Source: an uncultured Gammaproteobacteria bacterium (GTDB lineage: Bacteria > Patescibacteriota > Microgenomatia > Levybacterales > UBA12049). Taken from it: a stretch of DNA of 64,000 bases. The stretch is from assembly GCA_964507055.1 (NCBI GenBank), contig CAZDOJ010000001.1:13210-77209 (forward strand), in the 5' to 3' direction. Positions within the stretch are counted from its first letter, which is position 1; every line of letters starts with the position of its first letter. The translations under genes were made by a program, and so were the position numbers. The notes beneath the pieces are model-generated. The model saw only the letters and a program-made list of their open reading frames with translations, was not told where the DNA came from and made no database searches. Below are positions 1,381-16,838 of this stretch, one piece after another.

Positions 1381-3600
1381 CTATTGTCCTGGTTGTGTGG
1401 ATATTTCTCGGATGAAAAGATTGTAATCAATTTGGTTAACATCATTATCATCGTTTAAGTCAGACTTTACACTCTTTTCCGCCAATGCACAGTTTGCAGC
1501 GGCGGTAAGATCACTGTAGCAATCAAGGATTGAATTGTAGTCAAGGATATCAAGTCTGTTGTCATTATTTACATCTCCTGCGACAAGCGGGATTGATGTG
1601 ATCTTATTCTTTTGTCCCGAATTAATTTTCTGAACACCATTCACTTGTCGTCTCAAATATGTGTCTGCCTTCACCTTCATTGTGTATTGACCACTTGGGA
1701 AACCACTTTGGATAGGGATATCTCCGAGGTAATTTCCAGTGCTTGGATTATAGGTAATTGTTCCTGTTCCACTTGCGATGAGTTGATTATTTAGTGTAAA
1801 CACCTGGACGTCAGCTCCGATTGTTGGATGCTTCGGATCTTTGTTACTCAAGGAGTAGTCATTTGGATTTGTGTTGTCTCCACGATTACCAATCCCATCA
1901 AGGAAGACCGTTACATCAATTGTCGTTGTGTTCTCAGGAAGGTTTGGATCGTATGTATTTGGATTTCTTGGATCACTATCGATATGGCAAACTGGATCTC
2001 CGCCGTCAATTAATCCATCACCATTATTATCTTTAGAATCACCGCATGTATTTCCACCGCCTCGTTCACCATCTTTCTTCGGATCATATGAATTAGGATT
2101 CTTTGGATTGCCATCCGTGTGACATGTTGAATCAGCCGCATCTTTGAATCCATTATTGTCATTATCAATCCCGTCTGAGCATCGTGCCTTATCTGTATTT
2201 CCGAAGTGCTTATCATTTGATTGACTTGCGTTGGTTACATTAATTGCATATCCTGAAGGATCTGTTGGCAATGTTTGTGTCCAACCTGATTTCATTTGTT
2301 GTGACAACTTGTATGAACCGTCACAAAGTCCTGTAAATGTGTAATTTCCATTTGTGTCAGTTGTTGCAGTTTTTGTTCCTGCACTTGAAGTTGCTTGAAT
2401 AGTCCAACCTGAAAGTTTCGGCTCATTTGTATCAAATGCACCATTCATATTTGCATCGCTGAAGACAAACCCACCAAGCAATCCTTTACCGATTAACTTA
2501 GAGATTTCCTGATACACACCATCCAATTCACTTGGAGCAGGGAAGTAGAATTTACCACCTGTGAGCTCTGCAACTTGTCTCATGTAATCAGCAGAGAAGA
2601 ATTTGCTATCACCTTGTGCTGCCTCATCACCCAAACCGATTGTAAAGAAAACTGTCTTATTTGCAGCAAAGCCACTCTTTACGGCAGCCAATGCCTTTGC
2701 TTCACCTTCAGCAGCGGGTACTTGTTGGTTATTACCAATAATGTAATTTGCTTGACCATCTGTAAGCATGACTACAACTTTTTTGACCCCTGGTCGGCCT
2801 TTGGATGTAATTTCTTTATTTGCTTCAGCGATACCACATTCCTGACATGTATTTCCGCTTGCTGTCAGTGCATCGACTTTCGTTTTAATAGAATTGTAAT
2901 CAGTGGTAAGTGTGCTACTTAATGTACTATTTGTTGAGAAAGAAACCATACCTATTCTGGTTGTTTCTTCTTGGCCCGCTACAACATCAATAAAATTCTT
3001 TGCAGCATTCTTTGCTTGAACTAATTTATTTGCTTGTCCCATCGAACCTGATCTATCAATAACGAGGATGACGTCTGTCGTGACATTACCACACGTTGCC
3101 GGAACATCTGTTGAAACCTGTGCTGGCTGAGCAAGAGCATTTTGGCATGTTCGTGCTTCATAGGTTGCGGTTCGTTGTTCTGTTTGTGTAGGAGCGTCGG
3201 TATAATCAACTGTAAATGTCACTGTTCCAGCTGCGACAGAAGTTTTTCCTGAGGGGATAGTACTAGTTTTCGTTTCTTCCGGAGCAATTGTCCCTAGTGA
3301 AACTGTTTTTCCAGTGACTTCATCTTTGGCAGTAACTTCGATAGAACGTGATTTGTCGACATTAGTGTATGAAACGCCAACTTCAACTTCACCAGCAGCT
3401 GTACACTGTGATTGGCTTGATTGGAGAACAACTTGTCCTGAAAGTTCTTGATTTGCTGAAGGTTGTACAACTTGTGCTCGTCCACGAAGTTCTTGTTGCT
3501 CACGGAGATTATTTACAATGAGTGGGAGAACAATCATCGCGTATGCGATTCCCACAACCGTCAATGAAATAACTTTCCTTCTGTCTTTGAATCTTCTCAT
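1381..3600 (-). CDS. Membrane-anchored vWA-domain surface protein with an SdrD-B-like domain, Cys-rich Asp/Asn Ca-binding-type repeats and a C-terminal dockerin-like module.
   Basis: There is an N-terminal TM helix 'ISLTVVGIAYAMIVLPLIV' and a vWA MIDAS motif 'DVILVIDRSGSMG'. 'GGFVFSDANMNGAFDTNEPKLSGWTI...TDTNGNYTF' matches SdrD-B. The repeats 'CSDGIDNDNNGFKDAADSTC' and 'CGDSKDNNGDGLIDGGDPVC' are thrombospondin-type-3-like. The C-terminal paired Ca-loop segments 'DVNNDNRLDILDYNSIL' and 'DLNDDNDVNQIDYNLFI' form a dockerin type I signature. Confidence 0.65.
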   Translation of the reverse strand: MRRFKDRRKVISLTVVGIAYAMIVLPLIVNNLREQQELRGRAQVVQPSANQELSGQVVLQSSQSQCTAAGEVEVGVSYTNVDKSRSIEVTAKDEVTGKTVSLGTIAPEETKTSTIPSGKTSVAAGTVTFTVDYTDAPTQTEQRTATYEARTCQNALAQPAQVSTDVPATCGNVTTDVILVIDRSGSMGQANKLVQAKNAAKNFIDVVAGQEETTRIGMVSFSTNSTLSSTLTTDYNSIKTKVDALTASGNTCQECGIAEANKEITSKGRPGVKKVVVMLTDGQANYIIGNNQQVPAAEGEAKALAAVKSGFAANKTVFFTIGLGDEAAQGDSKFFSADYMRQVAELTGGKFYFPAPSELDGVYQEISKLIGKGLLGGFVFSDANMNGAFDTNEPKLSGWTIQATSSAGTKTATTDTNGNYTFTGLCDGSYKLSQQMKSGWTQTLPTDPSGYAINVTNASQSNDKHFGNTDKARCSDGIDNDNNGFKDAADSTCHTDGNPKNPNSYDPKKDGERGGGNTCGDSKDNNGDGLIDGGDPVCHIDSDPRNPNTYDPNLPENTTTIDVTVFLDGIGNRGDNTNPNDYSLSNKDPKHPTIGADVQVFTLNNQLIASGTGTITYNPSTGNYLGDIPIQSGFPSGQYTMKVKADTYLRRQVNGVQKINSGQKNKITSIPLVAGDVNNDNRLDILDYNSILDCYSDLTAAANCALAEKSVKSDLNDDNDVNQIDYNLFIREISTQPGQ

Positions 3601-3603
3601 ATG

Positions 3604-11593: not shown

Positions 11594-12544
11594 TTATGAA
11601 GTGCAGATATTGGCTACGATATTTTCAAGAATCTTATCTAAATTGCCTCCGTTGATACTATTAAAGTAATGTGTCTCAGTTGGTGCTGAAGCAACTTCTT
11701 TCATTAATGTTTCAAGATATGGGAAAAGCACTGCATCACTTGGATAACTTGGACTGTAAATATTTACTGAATAGATCCCAACTCCCATTTGCTTGATATC
11801 ACTTGCTATATTTGTCGGAACTCTTGGATCCTGTTCTCTTGCAAAACATCGCTGCTGTGGTGCAGTATTCGGATCAGGTGTTTCAACATAACAGTTTCTT
11901 GGTGGAGGAACTTCTGGTACACCGTCTGTCATAAGAATTAAATTCCACTTATATCCAGGATAAGCTTTTTCATCAAGTTGTTCTGCAATTTTATCCTTGA
12001 CCATAGCCATACCATCTCTTGTTCTCGTGTAACCATCAGGTTTAAGGCCATTAATCGCTTTATCTAATTCAGGTTTTGCGTCTTTGTAATAATTGATTGG
12101 CACTTCTTCTTCCACATCTTTACTAAAAGTATACAAACCTACAACTGATTTCCCTCCAAGGTTTTCGAGAAAATATTTAACGGCTTTTTTCGTATTATCC
12201 ATTTTCCCAGCAAACTTCATTGAACCAGAGGTATCGACTAAAAAGATCATCGCGGAATTCTGTCCACAATTACTTACATTAAATGTTTTTAGCTGAAGAT
12301 TATTATCTGCTGAAGTCTGTGCGTCAGTTGGCATAACTATTCTTTGCTTTGGATAATCTTCTGGATTGAAGTGAGGTTCAAGTGTTGGTGGTCCACCTGG
12401 ACCGTTTGGGTCAACTGGCGTTCCGCCGCCTGAGGCTACAAAAGCTCCCGCGATGACCAGTCCCATGATAAAAAGAATGGAAATAGCATTTGTGCGTGCT
12501 TCTCTATATGGTAGGGGAGGTCTACTTCCTTTGATTTTGCTCAT
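11594..12544 (-). CDS. Membrane-anchored vWA-domain protein.
   Basis: There is an N-terminal TM helix 'ISILFIMGLVIAGAFVA' and a MIDAS motif 'AMIFLVDTSGSMKF'. It is probably co-transcribed with the upstream Hint-domain gene. Confidence 0.6.
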   Translation of the reverse strand: MSKIKGSRPPLPYREARTNAISILFIMGLVIAGAFVASGGGTPVDPNGPGGPPTLEPHFNPEDYPKQRIVMPTDAQTSADNNLQLKTFNVSNCGQNSAMIFLVDTSGSMKFAGKMDNTKKAVKYFLENLGGKSVVGLYTFSKDVEEEVPINYYKDAKPELDKAINGLKPDGYTRTRDGMAMVKDKIAEQLDEKAYPGYKWNLILMTDGVPEVPPPRNCYVETPDPNTAPQQRCFAREQDPRVPTNIASDIKQMGVGIYSVNIYSPSYPSDAVLFPYLETLMKEVASAPTETHYFNSINGGNLDKILENIVANICTS

Positions 12545-12555
12545 AAGAATAACAG

Positions 12556-13407
12556 CTAGAGCTGGCTTCCACCGCTGCTTCCACTTCCGCCGCCACCGCC
12601 GCCTTTATTGTGGGCGAGAACGCCATCTGCGTAGAAGTTATTATGTCCACTTACTTTCTTGAGATTATATGCCTGTACTGGACCAGGGAAATAATCCATC
12701 CTAGTAATCGCGACATATTTTCCTGAATCTTTCAATACTTTGTCTCCGACTTTAAGAGGTTTTACTTTCAATACAGCATTCTCTTGAGCTGTTTTCTCTG
12801 GAGAAATAGATTTCCAACCTTCTGATGTGTACAGTGGATGTTCATTCGTTACACCAAGAACAGTTCCATCAGCGAGTTTGACATTATAATGATGATCGCG
12901 AAGTGGGGCATCCATTTCTTGTACTTTTACTGCAACTTGCTTCTTGCCATCATACCCGATGACACTATCTCCAACTTTTACATCTTCGATATTCTTTTCA
13001 GAATAATCAGCCATTAAGATCTTTGTTCCAGCTACGAAGCATGTGCTTCCACCGCCGCCACCGCCGCCACCACCTGTTGCAGGAGGCTGAGGAGTCGGAG
13101 TTGGAGTTGGGGTTGGTGAAGGAGTCGGTGTTGGTGTAAGTGTGATGCCAGGAAAATCTTCAAGCTGGAGATTTGATTTTCCGTCAGTATCGTCACCACG
13201 TTGGATAATAACTGGTTGACTATCATCTGGGGAAGCAAACTTAGGAGCAGAATTGCCGAGCATCATAACGCCGCCGCCAATGACAATTCCTAGGAAAATG
13301 ATTGCATAGATGGTACCAGCACCTACAGCGCCACGAGATTTTTTAACCTTTAATAAAAGTGCGTTTTTAGGTTTTCGAGCAGTAGTAGTTTTCTTTTTAG
13401 CGGGCAT
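12556..13407 (-). CDS. Membrane-anchored protein with a PT-rich linker, poly-Gly tracts and a Hint (bacterial intein-like, type-B-like BIL) domain.
   Basis: The TM helix is 'GTIYAIIFLGIVIGGGVMMLG'. The linker is 'PTPTPSPTPTPTPTPQPP' followed by G9. Hint block A is 'CFVAGTKILMADY', block B is 'VTNEHPLYT' (a TxxH motif), and the terminal block is 'NNFYADGVLAHN', followed by Lys and then a G/S-rich 16-aa tail. Confidence 0.65.
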   Translation of the reverse strand: MPAKKKTTTARKPKNALLLKVKKSRGAVGAGTIYAIIFLGIVIGGGVMMLGNSAPKFASPDDSQPVIIQRGDDTDGKSNLQLEDFPGITLTPTPTPSPTPTPTPTPQPPATGGGGGGGGGSTCFVAGTKILMADYSEKNIEDVKVGDSVIGYDGKKQVAVKVQEMDAPLRDHHYNVKLADGTVLGVTNEHPLYTSEGWKSISPEKTAQENAVLKVKPLKVGDKVLKDSGKYVAITRMDYFPGPVQAYNLKKVSGHNNFYADGVLAHNKGGGGGGSGSSGGSQL

Positions 13408-13581
13408 AGAAAAGCTCCTACATCCAGATTACTCTGAAAATTATTGCTCTGTCAAGCGACATTTTTCATGATTAAGGGTTGCATCAAGCTCAACTCTCTA
13501 GTATAATGACAGTTATCTTACACATTCAGCAGATATATCCTGAACCCACATATAGCTGAATGGAAGTTGAAGGATATTATT

Positions 13582-14517: not shown

Positions 14518-14973
14518 ATGGCACAACTAGATTTAAAAGCAATCAAAAAATTACGTGATGAAACATCTGCATCAATTGCAGATTGTCGTCGAGCTCTCGA
14601 AGAAGCAAACGGAGATGAGAAAAAAGCTCTTGAATGGCTAAAGAAGAGAGCCGGTGAAATTGCTGCTAAGAAAGCAGATCGCGAAACTTCACAAGGAATT
14701 ATCGAGGCATATATTCATGGTGGTGGTAAAGTTGGAGTTTTAGTTGACCTTGCATGTGAGACTGATTTCGTTGCAAAAACAGATGAATTCAAAGCTCTCG
14801 CAAAAGAAGTTGCTATGCAGGTTGCAGCTATGGATCCAAAAGATGTGGATGATCTTTTGAAGCAAGCATACATTCGTGATGGTTCACAAACAATCGAATC
14901 CCTCGTTAAAGATGCTATTGGTAAAATCGGAGAAAATATCGCAATTAAAAAATTCGTCCGGTTTGAGATCTAA
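14518..14973 (+). CDS. tsf: Elongation factor Ts, short form.
   Basis: 'IKKLRDETSASIADCRRALEEANGD...KALEWLKK' is the EF-Ts UBA-like N-terminal signature. The protein has about 150 aa, as in minimal genomes. Confidence 0.75.
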   Translation: MAQLDLKAIKKLRDETSASIADCRRALEEANGDEKKALEWLKKRAGEIAAKKADRETSQGIIEAYIHGGGKVGVLVDLACETDFVAKTDEFKALAKEVAMQVAAMDPKDVDDLLKQAYIRDGSQTIESLVKDAIGKIGENIAIKKFVRFEI

Positions 14974-14982
14974 ACCTATTTT

Positions 14983-15534
14983 ATGGATCCAGTCTTAACT
15001 ACAACAAAGCAAAAACTCCAAAAGGTTCTCGATGTGCTTCGAGATGATATCGCAACAATTCGTACTGGTCGTGCAGTCCCTTCATTGGTTGAAAACATTA
15101 CTGTTATGGCATATGGTGGTTCAGCCAAACTCAAAGTTATGGAGCTTGCAACAATCGGAACTCCTGACAATCAAACTATTGTTATCACACCATTTGACGC
15201 ATCAACGATTCACGAAATTCAAAAGGGGATTGAGCAGGCAAATGTGGGCTACAACCCAATCATTGATGGCATGTTACTTCGTATTTCTATCCCACCACTT
15301 TCTTTGGAACGTCGACAAGAACTCATTAAAGCAATGAAAGGAAAACTCGAAAACGGTAAAATTATGGTTCGACAAGTTCGTCACGAAATGATTGAAGATA
15401 TGAAGAAGGATTATGAAGGCCGCGAGGACGATATCAAACGATTAGAAAAAGAAGTACAAAAAGCTGTTGATGAAACTATCGAAACTATTGAAGATTGGGG
15501 CAAACAAAAAGAACAAGAACTTCTCCAAATTTAA
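14983..15534 (+). CDS. frr: Ribosome recycling factor.
   Basis: 'TIRTGRAVPSLVENITV', 'ISIPPLSLERRQEL' and 'VRQVRHE' are RRF signatures. It follows tsf directly, with no pyrH between them. Confidence 0.85.
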   Translation: MDPVLTTTKQKLQKVLDVLRDDIATIRTGRAVPSLVENITVMAYGGSAKLKVMELATIGTPDNQTIVITPFDASTIHEIQKGIEQANVGYNPIIDGMLLRISIPPLSLERRQELIKAMKGKLENGKIMVRQVRHEMIEDMKKDYEGREDDIKRLEKEVQKAVDETIETIEDWGKQKEQELLQI

Positions 15535-16838
15535 TCTTCTGTAGGTTCTTTTGCAAACATATCTAAATAAGCAATTGCAGGATCCATGCCTTCTGTTACT
15601 GGTAAAGCTTCAGGTTTCGTTACCCCGAATAGGTTGTTTAGTATATCTTCTATTTTTCCAATAGTAGCTAAGTCTTTAGGTCTTTCCCTCGAAGCATCTA
15701 TACTAACATTGAGCAGCTGACTCAAAGCAAATTGTGCTTTCAGAGCTTCTTCATCAGAACGGCTACTACTTTCTTTAAATTGCTCAAGGTCCTTCATCGC
15801 ATCTTGTACAGTAGCTATTTCCTCACGCCAGGTCTCAAAATAACGTGCTTCCATTAAATGAGTTCCAAAATAGTTTGCTTCATTCTTATTACCTGGAGTG
15901 TCATCTAAACTAAACGTATAATATTTGGTGCCACCTTTTTGAGGCAACTTCTCCCAACTTGCTGATGCACCTCTTGCGTCATTATAACTTGCATAGATGA
16001 ACTCATTTTTAATCTGAATCATTGCGTCATCGTATGAAGTGCCATCTGCCATTACTTCTTCTATCCTTGTACGGAACTTTATATTTGCAGCTCCAACTGC
16101 TTCTTTCTTTTCTTTCCATCCTGGATTGGCATCTGCATATGCGTGCTCTTGTGTTCGCACATCTTCTCCAAAGCGTTCAAATATTTTGGGTAGGTCTTCA
16201 ATGGTTACTTCCTCAGATGTAAATCCATCAAGAATCTTATCAATATTTGGAGCATAGGTATATTCAGGATATGTTTCAAGTGCCTCAAGTTGATCTTCAG
16301 CTTCAGTCTTTTTTACATCTTTAAGAGTTTCATCTCCATCCAACTCTTGTGCCGCTTTCGTTGCTGCTTCAGGATTAAGGAGAGTATCTTTTAAAACAAG
16401 TAATGCTGCTTTATTTGTCTCAGCTATTGCACGTGCCTCTTCATCCTTGGTCTGCATTTGTTGATCAAATCTCGCGATTCGTTGATCCAAGTATGTTTCT
16501 ATTTTGTCTTTGTGAGGTGGGGAAATTTCATGGCCAGCATAGGCATCTAACAAGATTTCTCGTATATCTACCAATCTGCTTTCTTGACGAAGAAACTCCT
16601 TTCTACCAATGACAACATCTTTCTTTTGCTCATCAAGATCTCCAATTTCCGCTTTCACAAGATCGAAAGCATCAATTGCAGTTACTTTATAGCTATCAGT
16701 GAGCTTGGCACTAAAAAGGCCCGCTTGATTATCAAACTTATCCGATCGGAATGATAATCCAGAGTGGTCATATTCCGGGCTTGGTTTTACTTTAGCTTCT
16801 TTTTCGAGAACAATGCGTTCTCCACCAGCTTCACTCAT
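15531..16838 (-). CDS. Hypothetical acidic soluble protein.
   Basis: It is a long 435-aa ORF convergent with frr. It has no TM helix and no recognisable motif. Confidence 0.4.
   Translation of the reverse strand: MSEAGGERIVLEKEAKVKPSPEYDHSGLSFRSDKFDNQAGLFSAKLTDSYKVTAIDAFDLVKAEIGDLDEQKKDVVIGRKEFLRQESRLVDIREILLDAYAGHEISPPHKDKIETYLDQRIARFDQQMQTKDEEARAIAETNKAALLVLKDTLLNPEAATKAAQELDGDETLKDVKKTEAEDQLEALETYPEYTYAPNIDKILDGFTSEEVTIEDLPKIFERFGEDVRTQEHAYADANPGWKEKKEAVGAANIKFRTRIEEVMADGTSYDDAMIQIKNEFIYASYNDARGASASWEKLPQKGGTKYYTFSLDDTPGNKNEANYFGTHLMEARYFETWREEIATVQDAMKDLEQFKESSSRSDEEALKAQFALSQLLNVSIDASRERPKDLATIGKIEDILNNLFGVTKPEALPVTEGMDPAIAYLDMFAKEPTED

What the first reader, a model, noticed from the sequence alone, without database searches (positions are those of the whole stretch)
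12556..13407. A stand-alone Hint/bacterial-intein-like (BIL) domain in a membrane-anchored, poly-Gly-flanked protein, in an operon with a vWA protein
The protein has Hint blocks A ('CFVAGTKILMADY', Cys1), B ('TNEHPLYT') and the terminal 'FYADGVLAHN'. There is no homing-endonuclease insert. After the HN the +1 residue is Lys, not Cys, Ser or Thr, which is the signature of type-B BIL domains. Type-B BIL domains typically perform N- or C-terminal cleavage or non-canonical ligation, not splicing. It is flanked by G9 and G6SGSSGGS spacers and a PT linker behind a TM anchor. BIL domains are associated with variable secreted or surface proteins. The Hint-mediated step could release or attach the N-terminal surface segment. 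The downstream partner (11594-12544) is a vWA protein.
Basis: partly seen in the sequence, partly recalled or inferred. Interest (0 to 1): 0.6.

Follow-up and report, generated by a model that had tools for sequence, protein, structure and literature searches.

The report
Self-removing Hint insert in stalk protein
The gene encodes a small membrane-anchored "stalk" protein of a Levybacteria-type (candidate phyla radiation) bacterium, with an intact intein-like (type-A-like BIL/Hint) self-processing domain inserted in its glycine-rich tail; this is a new example of a known kind of element, not a new mechanism.

Summary
ORF 13407..12556 (-) encodes 283 aa: basic N-terminus, one TM helix, an invariant NLQLxxF motif, a PT linker, G9-S-T, a 145-aa mini-Hint domain (C123...H266-N267), then K268 and a 15-aa Gly/Ser tail. 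A MIDAS-intact, membrane-anchored vWA gene follows 11 nt downstream.

The interpretation needs three corrections.

1. The domain is type-A-like, not type-B. It has a terminal His-Asn and no +1 nucleophile. PT-HINT scores above its Pfam cut-off and Hint_2 below. The closest structures are Tetrahymena BIL2 and the C. thermocellum BIL.

2. It is not really stand-alone. The conserved unit is stalk + vWA. Five syntenic species carry the same stalk gene without the Hint, others carry two Hints, and 28-nt GGN repeats flank the Hint-coding segment.

3. The catalytic residues and K268 are invariant in 44 orthologues, and dN/dS is about 0.05. The domain is therefore maintained, not decaying.

Most likely mechanism (inferred, not shown): thioester formation at T122-C123, Asn267 cyclisation, then rejoining of the flanks by amine attack, or plain cleavage.

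The same C...HN-K-G clade is abundant in CPR bacteria, DPANN archaea and phage contigs, often as head-to-tail arrays. Interest is moderate.

The parts
12556..13407 (-). Whole gene for the stalk-plus-Hint protein, 283 aa, stop codon TAG at 12556-12558.
   Evidence: The identical protein P0001 occurs on 11-12 public contigs.
13415..13419 (-). Shine-Dalgarno-like AGGAG, 7 nt upstream of the ATG. A weak sigma-70-like site lies at 13469-13440.
   Evidence: Read from the sequence. The promoter scan found 6 sites against 5.6 expected from shuffles, so the promoter is not established.
13321..13407 (-). Basic N-terminus (aa 1-29, K/R-rich), presumably cytoplasmic.
   Evidence: Sequence and alignment A1. 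The topology is inferred from the positive-inside rule.
13258..13320 (-). Single transmembrane helix, aa 30-50.
   Evidence: The AF2 model gives a helix at 30-50. The hydrophobic segment is conserved in the 44 orthologues.
13153..13173 (-). Motif N79-L-Q-L-x-x-F85, shared with the vWA partner.
   Evidence: L80, Q81, L82 and F85 are invariant in the 44 orthologues. The motif occurs only twice in the six-frame translation of the window, once in each of the two operon proteins.
13075..13143 (-). Pro/Thr linker, aa 89-111.
   Evidence: The AF2 model predicts it as disordered.
13042..13074 (-). N-terminal flank of the Hint: G9 (aa 112-120) then S121-T122. T122 is the -1 residue.
   Evidence: Across the wider clade the -1 residue is mostly S, T, G or C.
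12607..13041 (-). Mini-Hint (BIL-like) domain, aa 123-267. Catalytic positions: Cys123 (Cys1), block B T187-x-x-H190 (12838-12849), terminal H266-N267 (12607-12612).
   Evidence: Pfam, AF2 pLDDT >90, Foldseek. C123, T187, H190, H266 and N267 are invariant. dN/dS is 0.045-0.14.
12559..12606 (-). C-terminal flank (C-extein): invariant K268, near-invariant G269, then a Gly/Ser tail ending in Q-L.
   Evidence: Tails have a median length of 16 aa and are 71% G+S; 38 of 50 end in [AGQS][LMRIK].
13044..13071 (.). Upstream copy of a 28-nt GGN-rich direct repeat that flanks the Hint-coding segment.
   Evidence: Family D1, 82% identical to the reference copy at 12576-12603.
12576..12603 (.). Downstream (reference) copy of the same direct repeat.
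   Evidence: The two copies lie 468 nt apart, which is roughly the size of the Hint cassette.
11594..12544 (-). Partner gene for a membrane-anchored vWA protein, 316 aa. It has a TM helix at aa 20-37, the NLQLKTF motif at aa 82-88 (12281-12301), MIDAS residues D104-x-S106-x-S108, T173 and D207, and four conserved Cys.
   Evidence: Pfam VWA 4.7e-18, alignment A2, AF2 pLDDT 82.6. It starts 11 nt after the Hint gene's stop codon.

Best explanation
What it is. The gene encodes a small N-in/C-out membrane-anchored, largely disordered 'stalk' protein: a TM helix, the NLQLxxF motif, a PT linker and a Gly-rich tail. In Levybacteria-type CPR bacteria this protein is the conserved operon partner of a membrane-anchored, MIDAS-competent vWA protein. 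A 145-aa endonuclease-free Hint domain of the type-A bacterial-intein-like (BIL / pre-toxin-HINT) kind is inserted in the Gly-rich tail.

How it probably works (all steps inferred, none observed). After export, the Hint folds. Cys123 performs an N-to-S acyl shift, making a thioester at T122-C123. Asn267, assisted by His266, cyclises and breaks the N267-K268 bond. The freed amine of the Lys268-led tail (alpha or epsilon) then attacks the thioester. The Hint domain is released. The stalk regains a short Gly/Ser tail and closely resembles the Hint-less orthologues. Plain N- and/or C-terminal cleavage without ligation is the likely side reaction or alternative outcome.

Origin. The Hint is a long-resident, selectively maintained but dispensable passenger of the stalk gene. 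It is lost or duplicated through the GGN repeats that flank it.
For: Shown:
- Hint fold and motifs.
- The catalytic set C123, T187, H190, H266, N267 plus K268 is invariant in 44 orthologues that are 48-79% identical to the window protein.
- dN/dS of the Hint is 0.045 against L008 and 0.05-0.14 against more distant orthologues.
- C123 is the only Cys in the protein, so no disulphide can trap it outside the cell.
- Type-A character: terminal HN, no +1 Cys/Ser/Thr, PT-HINT above cut-off and Hint_2 below; nearest structures are BIL2, UmbC1 HINT and the C. thermocellum BIL.
- Stalk and vWA lie between rpsB and glyA in every locus where that flank is held; in L006/L007/L013 other genes separate the pair from rpsB.
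- Among the loci from the species-level genome collection, 7 carry one Hint and 5 (L033-L036, L038) carry none. The protein search adds the Hint-less P0068 and the two-Hint forms P0002, P0006, P0009, P0013.
- Hint presence is patchy on the vWA tree.
- Stalk Hints are nearly monophyletic, which points to vertical descent with losses.
- GGN direct repeats flank the cassette.
- C-exteins keep the terminal motif seen in Hint-less tails: AL/AM/AR/GL endings and GIGY. This argues that the tail is rejoined rather than discarded.

From the literature:
- Type A BILs splice by thioester formation, Asn cyclisation and amine attack, although cleavage products dominate (PMC4031507).
- Type-A Hint domains are also variably present among MafB orthologues (PMC4524018).
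Against: - No biochemical data exist, so ligation versus cleavage is unresolved.
- The Hint-less orthologues are not exact 'spliced' sequences. They carry short non-Gly inserts at the junction (SHAP, NNAPDK, NQQPQT).
- The strict invariance of K268-G269, and strong purifying selection on a domain the operon can do without, hint at a function beyond self-removal.
- About 4% of clade members have Arg at +1. An epsilon-amine role therefore cannot be universal.
- The vWA NJ tree is a quick distance tree without support values.
Confidence: 0.6

Rival explanations
1. Cleavage only. The Hint performs N- and/or C-terminal autocleavage without rejoining the flanks. The stalk ends at T122, and the Hint domain (with or without the tail) is shed from the cell surface. 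The released Hint or the trimmed stalk would be the functional product.
For: Cleavage products dominate for characterised type A BILs (PMC4031507; PMC7765530). The C-extein is short and of low complexity. In tandem arrays the 'exteins' between Hints shrink to 1-3 residues, which makes sense for a self-cleaving polyprotein.
Against: 38 of 50 tails keep a conserved terminal dipeptide that some Hint-less orthologues also have. This is hard to explain if the tail were discarded. The invariant K268-G269 suggests a role for the +1 residue.
Confidence: 0.22
2. Trans-ligation. The T122-C123 thioester is resolved by an outside nucleophile: a Lys of the vWA partner, a cell-envelope amine or a host-cell surface molecule. 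The stalk's C-terminus would become covalently attached to that target, as BIL2 attaches ubl4 to lysines or Hedgehog attaches cholesterol.
For: The closest solved relative, BIL2, forms K(epsilon-NH2)-C-terminus isopeptide bonds onto other proteins (PMC8616854; structural match). The operon partner is an extracellular MIDAS adhesin-type domain. Both proteins share an invariant NLQLxxF motif that is disordered in the monomer models, which is compatible with the two docking. CPR bacteria are typically host-attached (general knowledge).
Against: Hint-less orthologues keep the operon, so the stalk-vWA function does not need the chemistry. No adduct-recognition region follows the Hint; there are only 15 Gly/Ser-rich residues. 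Two-Hint variants are not explained by this model. There is no direct evidence.
Confidence: 0.1
3. One reading: a type-B BIL domain that performs atypical cleavage.
For: Hint_2 gives sub-threshold hits in 21 of 44 members. The +1 residue is not a nucleophile.
Against: [quoted passage not shown] Here the block-G HN is invariant. Hint_2 is below its cut-off and matches only the N-terminal 60 residues. The nearest structures are type-A-side BILs.
Confidence: 0.03
4. A catalytically idle Hint fold kept as a structural or binding module at the tip of the stalk. Alternatively, a canonical class-1 intein.
For: Hint-related folds without processing activity exist; the AXH module is one, and Pfam AXH gives sub-threshold hits here. 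Hint-less alleles of the host protein exist, as they do for inteins.
Against: Every catalytic residue is invariant across 44 orthologues, and nearly so across 361 clade domains: Cys1 in 338 of 340 and HN in 314 of 324. There is no +1 Cys/Ser/Thr and no endonuclease, and the host is not a conserved housekeeping protein, so it is not a canonical intein.
Confidence: 0.05

Closest known systems
Type A bacterial intein-like (BIL) domains / Pfam PT-HINT (PF07591). Examples: C. thermocellum BIL (PDB 2LWY), Neisseria MafB Hint, Streptomyces UmbC1 HINT (PDB 8W20).
   Same: About 140 aa, no endonuclease. N-terminal Cys, block B TxxH, C-terminal His-Asn, no +1 Cys/Ser/Thr. Located in secreted or surface, lineage-variable proteins. 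Variably present among orthologues, as in MafB. PT-HINT scores above its cut-off. Profile E-values are 2e-12 to 7e-11 against 8W20 and 2LWY. Foldseek against 2LWY gives E 5e-11, TM 0.85.
   Different: Invariant Lys-Gly at +1/+2 (UmbC1 has N-D there). Gly-rich flanks on both sides. No toxin or functional domain downstream, only a 15-residue tail. The clade forms head-to-tail arrays with 1-3-residue linkers. Distribution is in CPR bacteria, DPANN archaea and phage contigs.
BIL2 of the Tetrahymena thermophila BUBL1 polyubiquitin-like locus (PDB 6Y75 / 6TMM).
   Same: Best sequence and structure match: 28% identity, rmsd 1.8 A, TM 0.84-0.87, and a shared ...F(F/Y)A(N/D)GVLAHN C-terminal block. Its chemistry ends in an amide or isopeptide bond to a lysine amine, not to a +1 thiol or hydroxyl.
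   Different: It is eukaryotic and intracellular, flanked by ubiquitin-like domains that are the cargo. Here the flanks are a membrane stalk and a Gly/Ser tail. No Zn-site or substrate information is available for the window protein.
Canonical mini-inteins (for example gp41-1, Ssp/Npu DnaB, Mtu RecA splicing domain).
   Same: Same Hint fold (Foldseek E 1e-9 to 1e-7). Cys1, block B His and terminal HN are present. Host-protein alleles without the insert exist.
   Different: No +1 Cys/Ser/Thr, so no branched-ester intermediate can form. The host is a non-housekeeping, low-complexity surface protein. The insertion lies in a disordered Gly-rich tail rather than a conserved active-site motif.
Eukaryotic VWA-Vint proteins and Hedgehog Hog domains.
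   Same: [quoted passage not shown] The general idea of a thioester resolved by a non-protein or foreign nucleophile also applies (Hedgehog).
   Different: In Vint proteins the vWA domain is fused N-terminally to a divergent Hint that lacks the C-terminal motifs, and the protein is intracellular. Here the vWA is a separate downstream gene, and the Hint has full intein-type C-terminal motifs. There is no sterol- or adduct-recognition region. Pfam Vint and Pfam Hint both score below their cut-offs.

Membership tests
Hint (Hedgehog/intein) superfamily | Horseshoe-shaped all-beta Hint fold with blocks A, B, F and G. | tested here: met
   AF2 pLDDT is >90 over residues 121-270. Foldseek finds 69 PDB matches at E<=1e-3, and all 50 listed are inteins, BILs or Hedgehog domains. 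Pfam Hom_end_hint and PT-HINT score above their cut-offs.
Type A BIL / PT-HINT | N-terminal Cys/Ser nucleophile and block B Thr-x-x-His. | tested here: met
   C123, T187 and H190 are invariant in 44 orthologues.
Type A BIL / PT-HINT | C-terminal His-Asn retained (similarity to intein block G). | tested here: met
   H266-N267 are invariant. HN is present in 314 of 324 clade domains. The definition comes from PMC4031507.
Type A BIL / PT-HINT | No Cys/Ser/Thr at the +1 position of the C-flank. | tested here: met
   K268 is invariant. Across the clade, +1 is K in 254 and R in 14 of 324 domains.
Type A BIL / PT-HINT | Profile membership (PF07591 at or above its gathering score). | tested here: met
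   32.1 bits against a cut-off of 27.7, covering profile positions 9-130 of 137. 41 of 44 orthologues match at E<=1e-3. Equating PF07591 with type A BILs rests on my own knowledge plus the MafB statement in PMC4524018.
Type A BIL / PT-HINT | Located in non-conserved secreted or surface proteins, with variable presence among homologues. | tested here: met
   The host is a lineage-restricted membrane-anchored stalk protein with no Pfam family. Hint-less orthologues exist. Other clade members sit in proteins containing Ig-like, fn3, LTD and CarboxypepD_reg domains.
Type A BIL / PT-HINT | Autocatalytic cleavage or splicing activity. | not testable with these tools
   Needs expression and mass spectrometry. 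Only inferred here, from the invariant catalytic residues and dN/dS of about 0.05.
Type B BIL / Pfam Hint_2 | C-terminal motif unlike intein block G (no conserved HN), and profile membership in PF13403. | tested here: not met
   HN is invariant. Hint_2 scores 22.5 bits, below its cut-off of 28.4, and matches only profile positions 1-62 of 147.
Canonical (class 1) intein | +1 Cys/Ser/Thr that forms the branched intermediate. | tested here: not met
   The +1 residue is Lys in all 44 orthologues.
Canonical (class 1) intein | Insert-free alleles of a recognisable host protein exist. | tested here: met
   L033-L036, L038 and P0068 are the same stalk protein in the same synteny without the Hint.
Hedgehog/Hog | Adduct (sterol) recognition region C-terminal to the Hint, and a Gly-Cys junction. 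| tested here: not met
   Only 16 residues follow N267, and they are Gly/Ser-rich. The junction is Thr-Cys. Pfam Hint (PF01079) scores 28.6, below its cut-off of 29.7.
VWA-Vint | vWA and a Vint-type Hint fused in one polypeptide, with the Hint lacking intein C-terminal motifs. | tested here: not met
   The two are separate genes, and the order is Hint then vWA. Pfam Vint scores 25.3, below its cut-off of 27. The terminal HN is present.

The most novel reading that the evidence does not exclude
The C...HN-K-G Hint clade may be a distinct, functional class of extracellular 'lysine-resolving' Hint domains used by ultra-small episymbionts (CPR, DPANN) and their phages. In this reading, the invariant +1 Lys epsilon-amine, or a Lys or amine on a partner such as the co-encoded vWA protein or on a host-cell surface, captures the N-terminal thioester. 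The result would be ATP-independent isopeptide crosslinks. In this locus that would covalently couple the membrane stalk to its target. In the tandem arrays it would create multi-thioester 'covalent adhesin' or self-polymerising polyproteins.
Probability: 0.1. Interest if true: 0.8.

Novelty: new member of a known kind. Interest (0 to 1): 0.4.

Why it matters
On the ordinary reading, this locus extends type-A-like BIL domains to candidate-phyla-radiation bacteria. It also offers a clean natural experiment on what a BIL does to its host protein: orthologous operons carry zero, one or two Hint copies in an otherwise identical small surface protein.

The locus also exposes a very large, uncharacterised Hint clade. 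There are 2,219 cluster representatives at E<=1e-10. Cys1 and HN are nearly universal, and Lys-Gly follows the terminal HN in most members. The domains have Gly-rich flanks and often form head-to-tail arrays of up to nine copies. The clade is shared by CPR bacteria, DPANN archaea and phage contigs.

If the +1 Lys proves to be the nucleophile, these compact 145-aa domains would be natural amide or isopeptide ligases that work outside the cell. That would be of interest for protein engineering and for understanding how episymbionts build or attach their surfaces.

Tried and rejected
- Type-B BIL label. Rejected on the C-terminal motif and on Pfam scores.
- Canonical intein. Rejected because +1 is Lys, there is no endonuclease, and the host is a low-complexity surface protein.
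- Hedgehog-like or Vint-like membership. Rejected because there is no adduct-recognition region, the genes are separate, and the profile scores are sub-threshold.
- Pilin-like (type IV or Flp/TadE) reading of the N-terminal 'KG..DAGTVYG' segment. Considered from memory. No Pfam or NCBIfam support was found, so it was dropped.
- Family for the stalk N-terminal region or the vWA pre-domain. Pfam found nothing.
- PHROGs annotation for the Hint protein. Only families of unknown function matched.
- Promoter/terminator scan. Not above the shuffled background for promoters.
- Literature search for Hint/BIL domains in CPR or DPANN. None of the 15 listed papers contained 'intein-like' or 'Hint domain'.
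- Primary BIL papers (Dassa 2004, Chiarini 2021). Not held in the library. Whether the +1 residue of BIL2 is Lys could therefore not be checked.
- Whether K268 lies near C123 in the model.
- Whether NLQLxxF docks onto the vWA fold. In both monomer models the motif has pLDDT <50, and no complex prediction was available.
Full report
OBSERVATION

The ORF on the minus strand from 13407 to 12556 is real and encodes 283 aa. Its layout, in order:
- a Lys/Arg-rich N-terminus (aa 1-29);
- one hydrophobic helix (aa 30-50, helix in the AF2 model);
- a short acidic segment;
- the motif N79-LQL-xx-F85;
- a Pro/Thr linker (aa 89-111);
- G9 (aa 112-120), then S121-T122;
- a 145-aa domain from C123 to N267;
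- K268, G6, SGSSGGSQL.

C123 is the only cysteine in the protein.

The next gene begins 11 nt after the stop codon (12544 to 11594). It encodes a 316-aa protein with an N-terminal TM helix and a vWA domain (Pfam VWA 4.7e-18). Its MIDAS residues D104, S106, S108, T173 and D207, and four cysteines, are conserved in 41 homologues.

IS IT A HINT DOMAIN?

Yes, beyond reasonable doubt.
- Pfam Hom_end_hint (43.6 bits) and PT-HINT (32.1 bits, covering positions 9-130 of 137) both exceed their curated cut-offs.
- The single sequence finds the BIL2 domain of the Tetrahymena BUBL1 locus in the PDB at 6.5e-7 over residues 123-266.
- A profile of 44 orthologues raises this to 3.3e-13. It also finds the HINT domain of the Streptomyces umbrella-toxin protein UmbC1 (8W20, 1.9e-12) and the Clostridium thermocellum BIL domain (2LWY, 6.6e-11) (the identity of 8W20 comes from PMC11062931).
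- An AlphaFold2 model built on the orthologue alignment has pLDDT >90 over 121-270 and is disordered elsewhere apart from the TM helix.
- Foldseek places the model next to BIL2 (E 7e-14, TM 0.84-0.87, rmsd 1.8 A, 28% identity), then 2LWY (5e-11), then mini-inteins and Hedgehog.
- There is no room for a homing endonuclease.

WHICH KIND OF HINT DOMAIN?

The literature says the reverse. [quoted passage not shown] Here HN is invariant. PT-HINT matches 41 of 44 orthologues. Hint_2 matches only 21, is below its cut-off in the window protein, and is restricted to the N-terminal 60 residues. The domain is therefore type-A-like.

WHAT THE RELATIVES SHOW

A word-indexed search found 48 full-length relatives of 241-320 aa with the same architecture; the named ones are Candidatus Levybacteria/Levyibacteriota. 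In an alignment of 44 of them (48-79% identical to the window protein), these positions are invariant: C123, T187, H190, H266, N267 and K268, plus L80, Q81, L82 and F85. G269 is nearly invariant.

Nei-Gojobori dN/dS for the Hint segment is 0.045 against the closest orthologue (L008) and 0.05-0.14 against more distant ones. That is as low as or lower than for the stalk segment. The domain is under strong purifying selection.

The gene pair, and its position between rpsB and glyA, are conserved. In L006/L007/L013 other genes separate the pair from rpsB.

THE KEY RESULT

In five further species (L033, L034, L035, L036, L038) and in P0068, the syntenic gene upstream of the vWA gene encodes the same stalk protein without any Hint domain. 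An example is ...TPTPVPPSNGGGGGGGGGGSHAPQGGGSGGGGGSTGGSGL. Four other relatives carry two Hint domains in tandem (P0002, P0006, P0009, P0013).

- On a distance tree of the vWA partners, Hint-less and Hint-bearing loci are interleaved in both main clades.
- The stalk-borne Hint domains are almost monophyletic: 54 domains plus three outsiders. They diverge in step with the rest of the operon.
- The simplest history is one old acquisition followed by several losses and duplications.
- The Hint-coding segment is flanked by 28-nt GGN-rich direct repeats (13044-13071 and 12576-12603). These are an obvious substrate for such deletions and duplications.

The conserved functional unit is therefore stalk + vWA, and the Hint is a dispensable but maintained insert. 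Variable presence is also reported for the type-A Hint of MafB toxins (PMC4524018).

MECHANISM (INFERRED, NOT SHOWN)

By the positive-inside rule the Hint is extracytoplasmic. With all catalytic residues intact, the expected chemistry is:
1. an N-to-S acyl shift at T122-C123;
2. succinimide formation at N267, breaking the N267-K268 bond;
3. resolution of the thioester, either by the amine of the K268-led tail (ligation, the type-A BIL route) or by water (cleavage).

Three observations make me lean towards ligation.
- The predicted spliced tail (G9-ST-K-G6-SGSSGGSQL, 28 residues) matches the Hint-less tails in length and composition.
- 38 of 50 C-exteins end in the same small-residue-plus-L/M/R/I/K dipeptide, as do the Hint-less L033 (GL) and L036 (AM). 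Some share a GIGY motif with Hint-less L038 and P0068. This conservation would be pointless in a discarded peptide.
- K268-G269 are invariant. BIL2, the nearest solved relative, ends its reaction in a lysine isopeptide bond (PMC8616854).

Against over-reading the Lys: about 4% of clade members have Arg at +1. The Hint-less orthologues are also not exact 'spliced' sequences; they carry short SHAP, NNAPDK or NQQPQT inserts.

THE WIDER CLADE

An exhaustive HMMER search of 1.84 billion cluster representatives gave 7,454 hits at E<=1e-3, 2,219 at <=1e-10 and 219 at <=1e-30. Among the 221 proteins fetched up to that point (the 150 best of that search plus the hits), I delimited 361 domains:
- Cys1 in 338 of 340;
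- HN in 314 of 324;
- +1 is K in 254 and R in 14;
- +2 is G in 178;
- 87 of 218 proteins have two to seven copies, with linkers between adjacent copies as short as K, KG, KGG, KC or RC.

One archaeal locus (L029) has nine copies in a row. Hosts are surface-type proteins with Ig-like, fn3, LTD and CarboxypepD_reg domains or a C39 peptidase. They come from Woesearchaeota, Nanoarchaeota, Roizmanbacteria, Microgenomates and Saccharibacteria.

The same clade occurs on 120 IMG/VR viral contigs, typically as one to three copies near the C-terminus of ORFs of roughly 480-1,300 aa, some cut by contig ends; +1 is K in 77 of 92.

I found no paper in the held library linking Hint/BIL domains to CPR or DPANN. 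This is weak evidence of absence only.

RIVAL READINGS

- Cleavage-only shedding is the main rival.
- Trans-ligation to the vWA partner, the envelope or a host surface is chemically plausible and is the most novel reading. It is weakened by the Hint-less orthologues and by the lack of any adduct-recognition region.
- Type-B BIL, canonical intein, Hedgehog-like, Vint-like and idle structural domain readings each fail a tested defining feature (see the membership table).

VERDICT

Its classification (type B) is wrong, and 'stand-alone' is only partly right, because the flanks are a recognisable host protein.

This is a new member of a known kind, a type-A-like BIL domain. It has two features worth follow-up: the invariant Lys-Gly after HN, and the clade's head-to-tail arrays in episymbiont and phage proteins. 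Interest is moderate (0.4).

Noticed in passing
window 13153-13173 (-) and 12281-12301 (-): The motif NLQLxxF is invariant in both operon proteins: stalk aa 79-85 and vWA aa 82-88. In each it lies roughly 30-45 residues after the TM helix. These are its only two occurrences in the six-frame translation of the window. Both AF2 monomer models leave it at pLDDT <50. That suggests a strand that folds on docking, or a shared recognition site.
   Followed up: partly
L029 2-5209; P0077, P0085 (protein ids): Head-to-tail arrays of the same Hint clade: nine copies in L029, seven in P0077. Adjacent domains are separated by only 1-3 residues (K, KG, KGG, KC, RC). The proteins come from MAGs labelled as DPANN or other archaea, or from unlabelled metagenome clusters.
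   Followed up: partly
L039-L118 (IMG/VR viral contigs): 120 viral contigs encode relatives of this Hint clade at 32-43% identity. They typically have one to three copies near the C-terminus of ORFs of roughly 480-1,300 aa, some cut by contig ends. Cys1 is present in 116 of 116 domains. The +1 residue is K in 77 and R in 8 of 92. PHROGs gives no function.
   Followed up: partly
window 12576-12603 and 13044-13071: 28-nt GGN-rich direct repeats (82% identical) bracket the Hint-coding segment. They are a plausible substrate for the Hint losses and duplications seen among orthologues.
   Followed up: partly
window 1384-3603 (-): A second, larger vWA protein of 740 aa (VWA 5.5e-18 plus an SdrD_B-like domain). 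It lacks the NLQL motif.
   Followed up: partly
window 12467-12544 (-): Public gene calls start the vWA protein at an internal Met, giving 290 aa. The conserved N-terminal residues (GSRPP... and the TM helix) support the 316-aa start at 12544, 11 nt after the Hint stop. No obvious Shine-Dalgarno sequence precedes it, which suggests translational coupling.
   Followed up: partly
P0097, P0113, P0119, P0050 (protein ids): These are non-stalk proteins. The Hints of P0097, P0113 and P0119 nest inside the stalk-Hint clade; P0050 is cut at its N-terminus and was not placed in the tree. In P0113 and P0119 the Hint sits directly after a signal peptide. In all four a large Cys-rich region follows the Hint, and in P0050, P0113 and P0119 it ends in a dockerin-like segment. 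The functional cargo is therefore the C-extein.
   Followed up: no
window 14518-14973 (+): The EF-Ts ORF is only 151 aa. The same short length (150-151 aa) is seen in the orthologous loci L001 and L004.
   Followed up: no
window 15531-16838 (-): A 435-aa acidic ORF with no Pfam match is conserved in synteny between frr and the M50 peptidase gene (435 aa in L001, 372-374 aa in L004/L005).
   Followed up: no
L008, L013, L032, L035 (record titles): Several public MAG records that carry close orthologues of this Levybacteria-type operon are titled 'uncultured Gammaproteobacteria'. One is the 1.61-Mb chromosome OZ246394.1, whose orthologue is 89% identical. These look like automatic mislabels.
   Followed up: no
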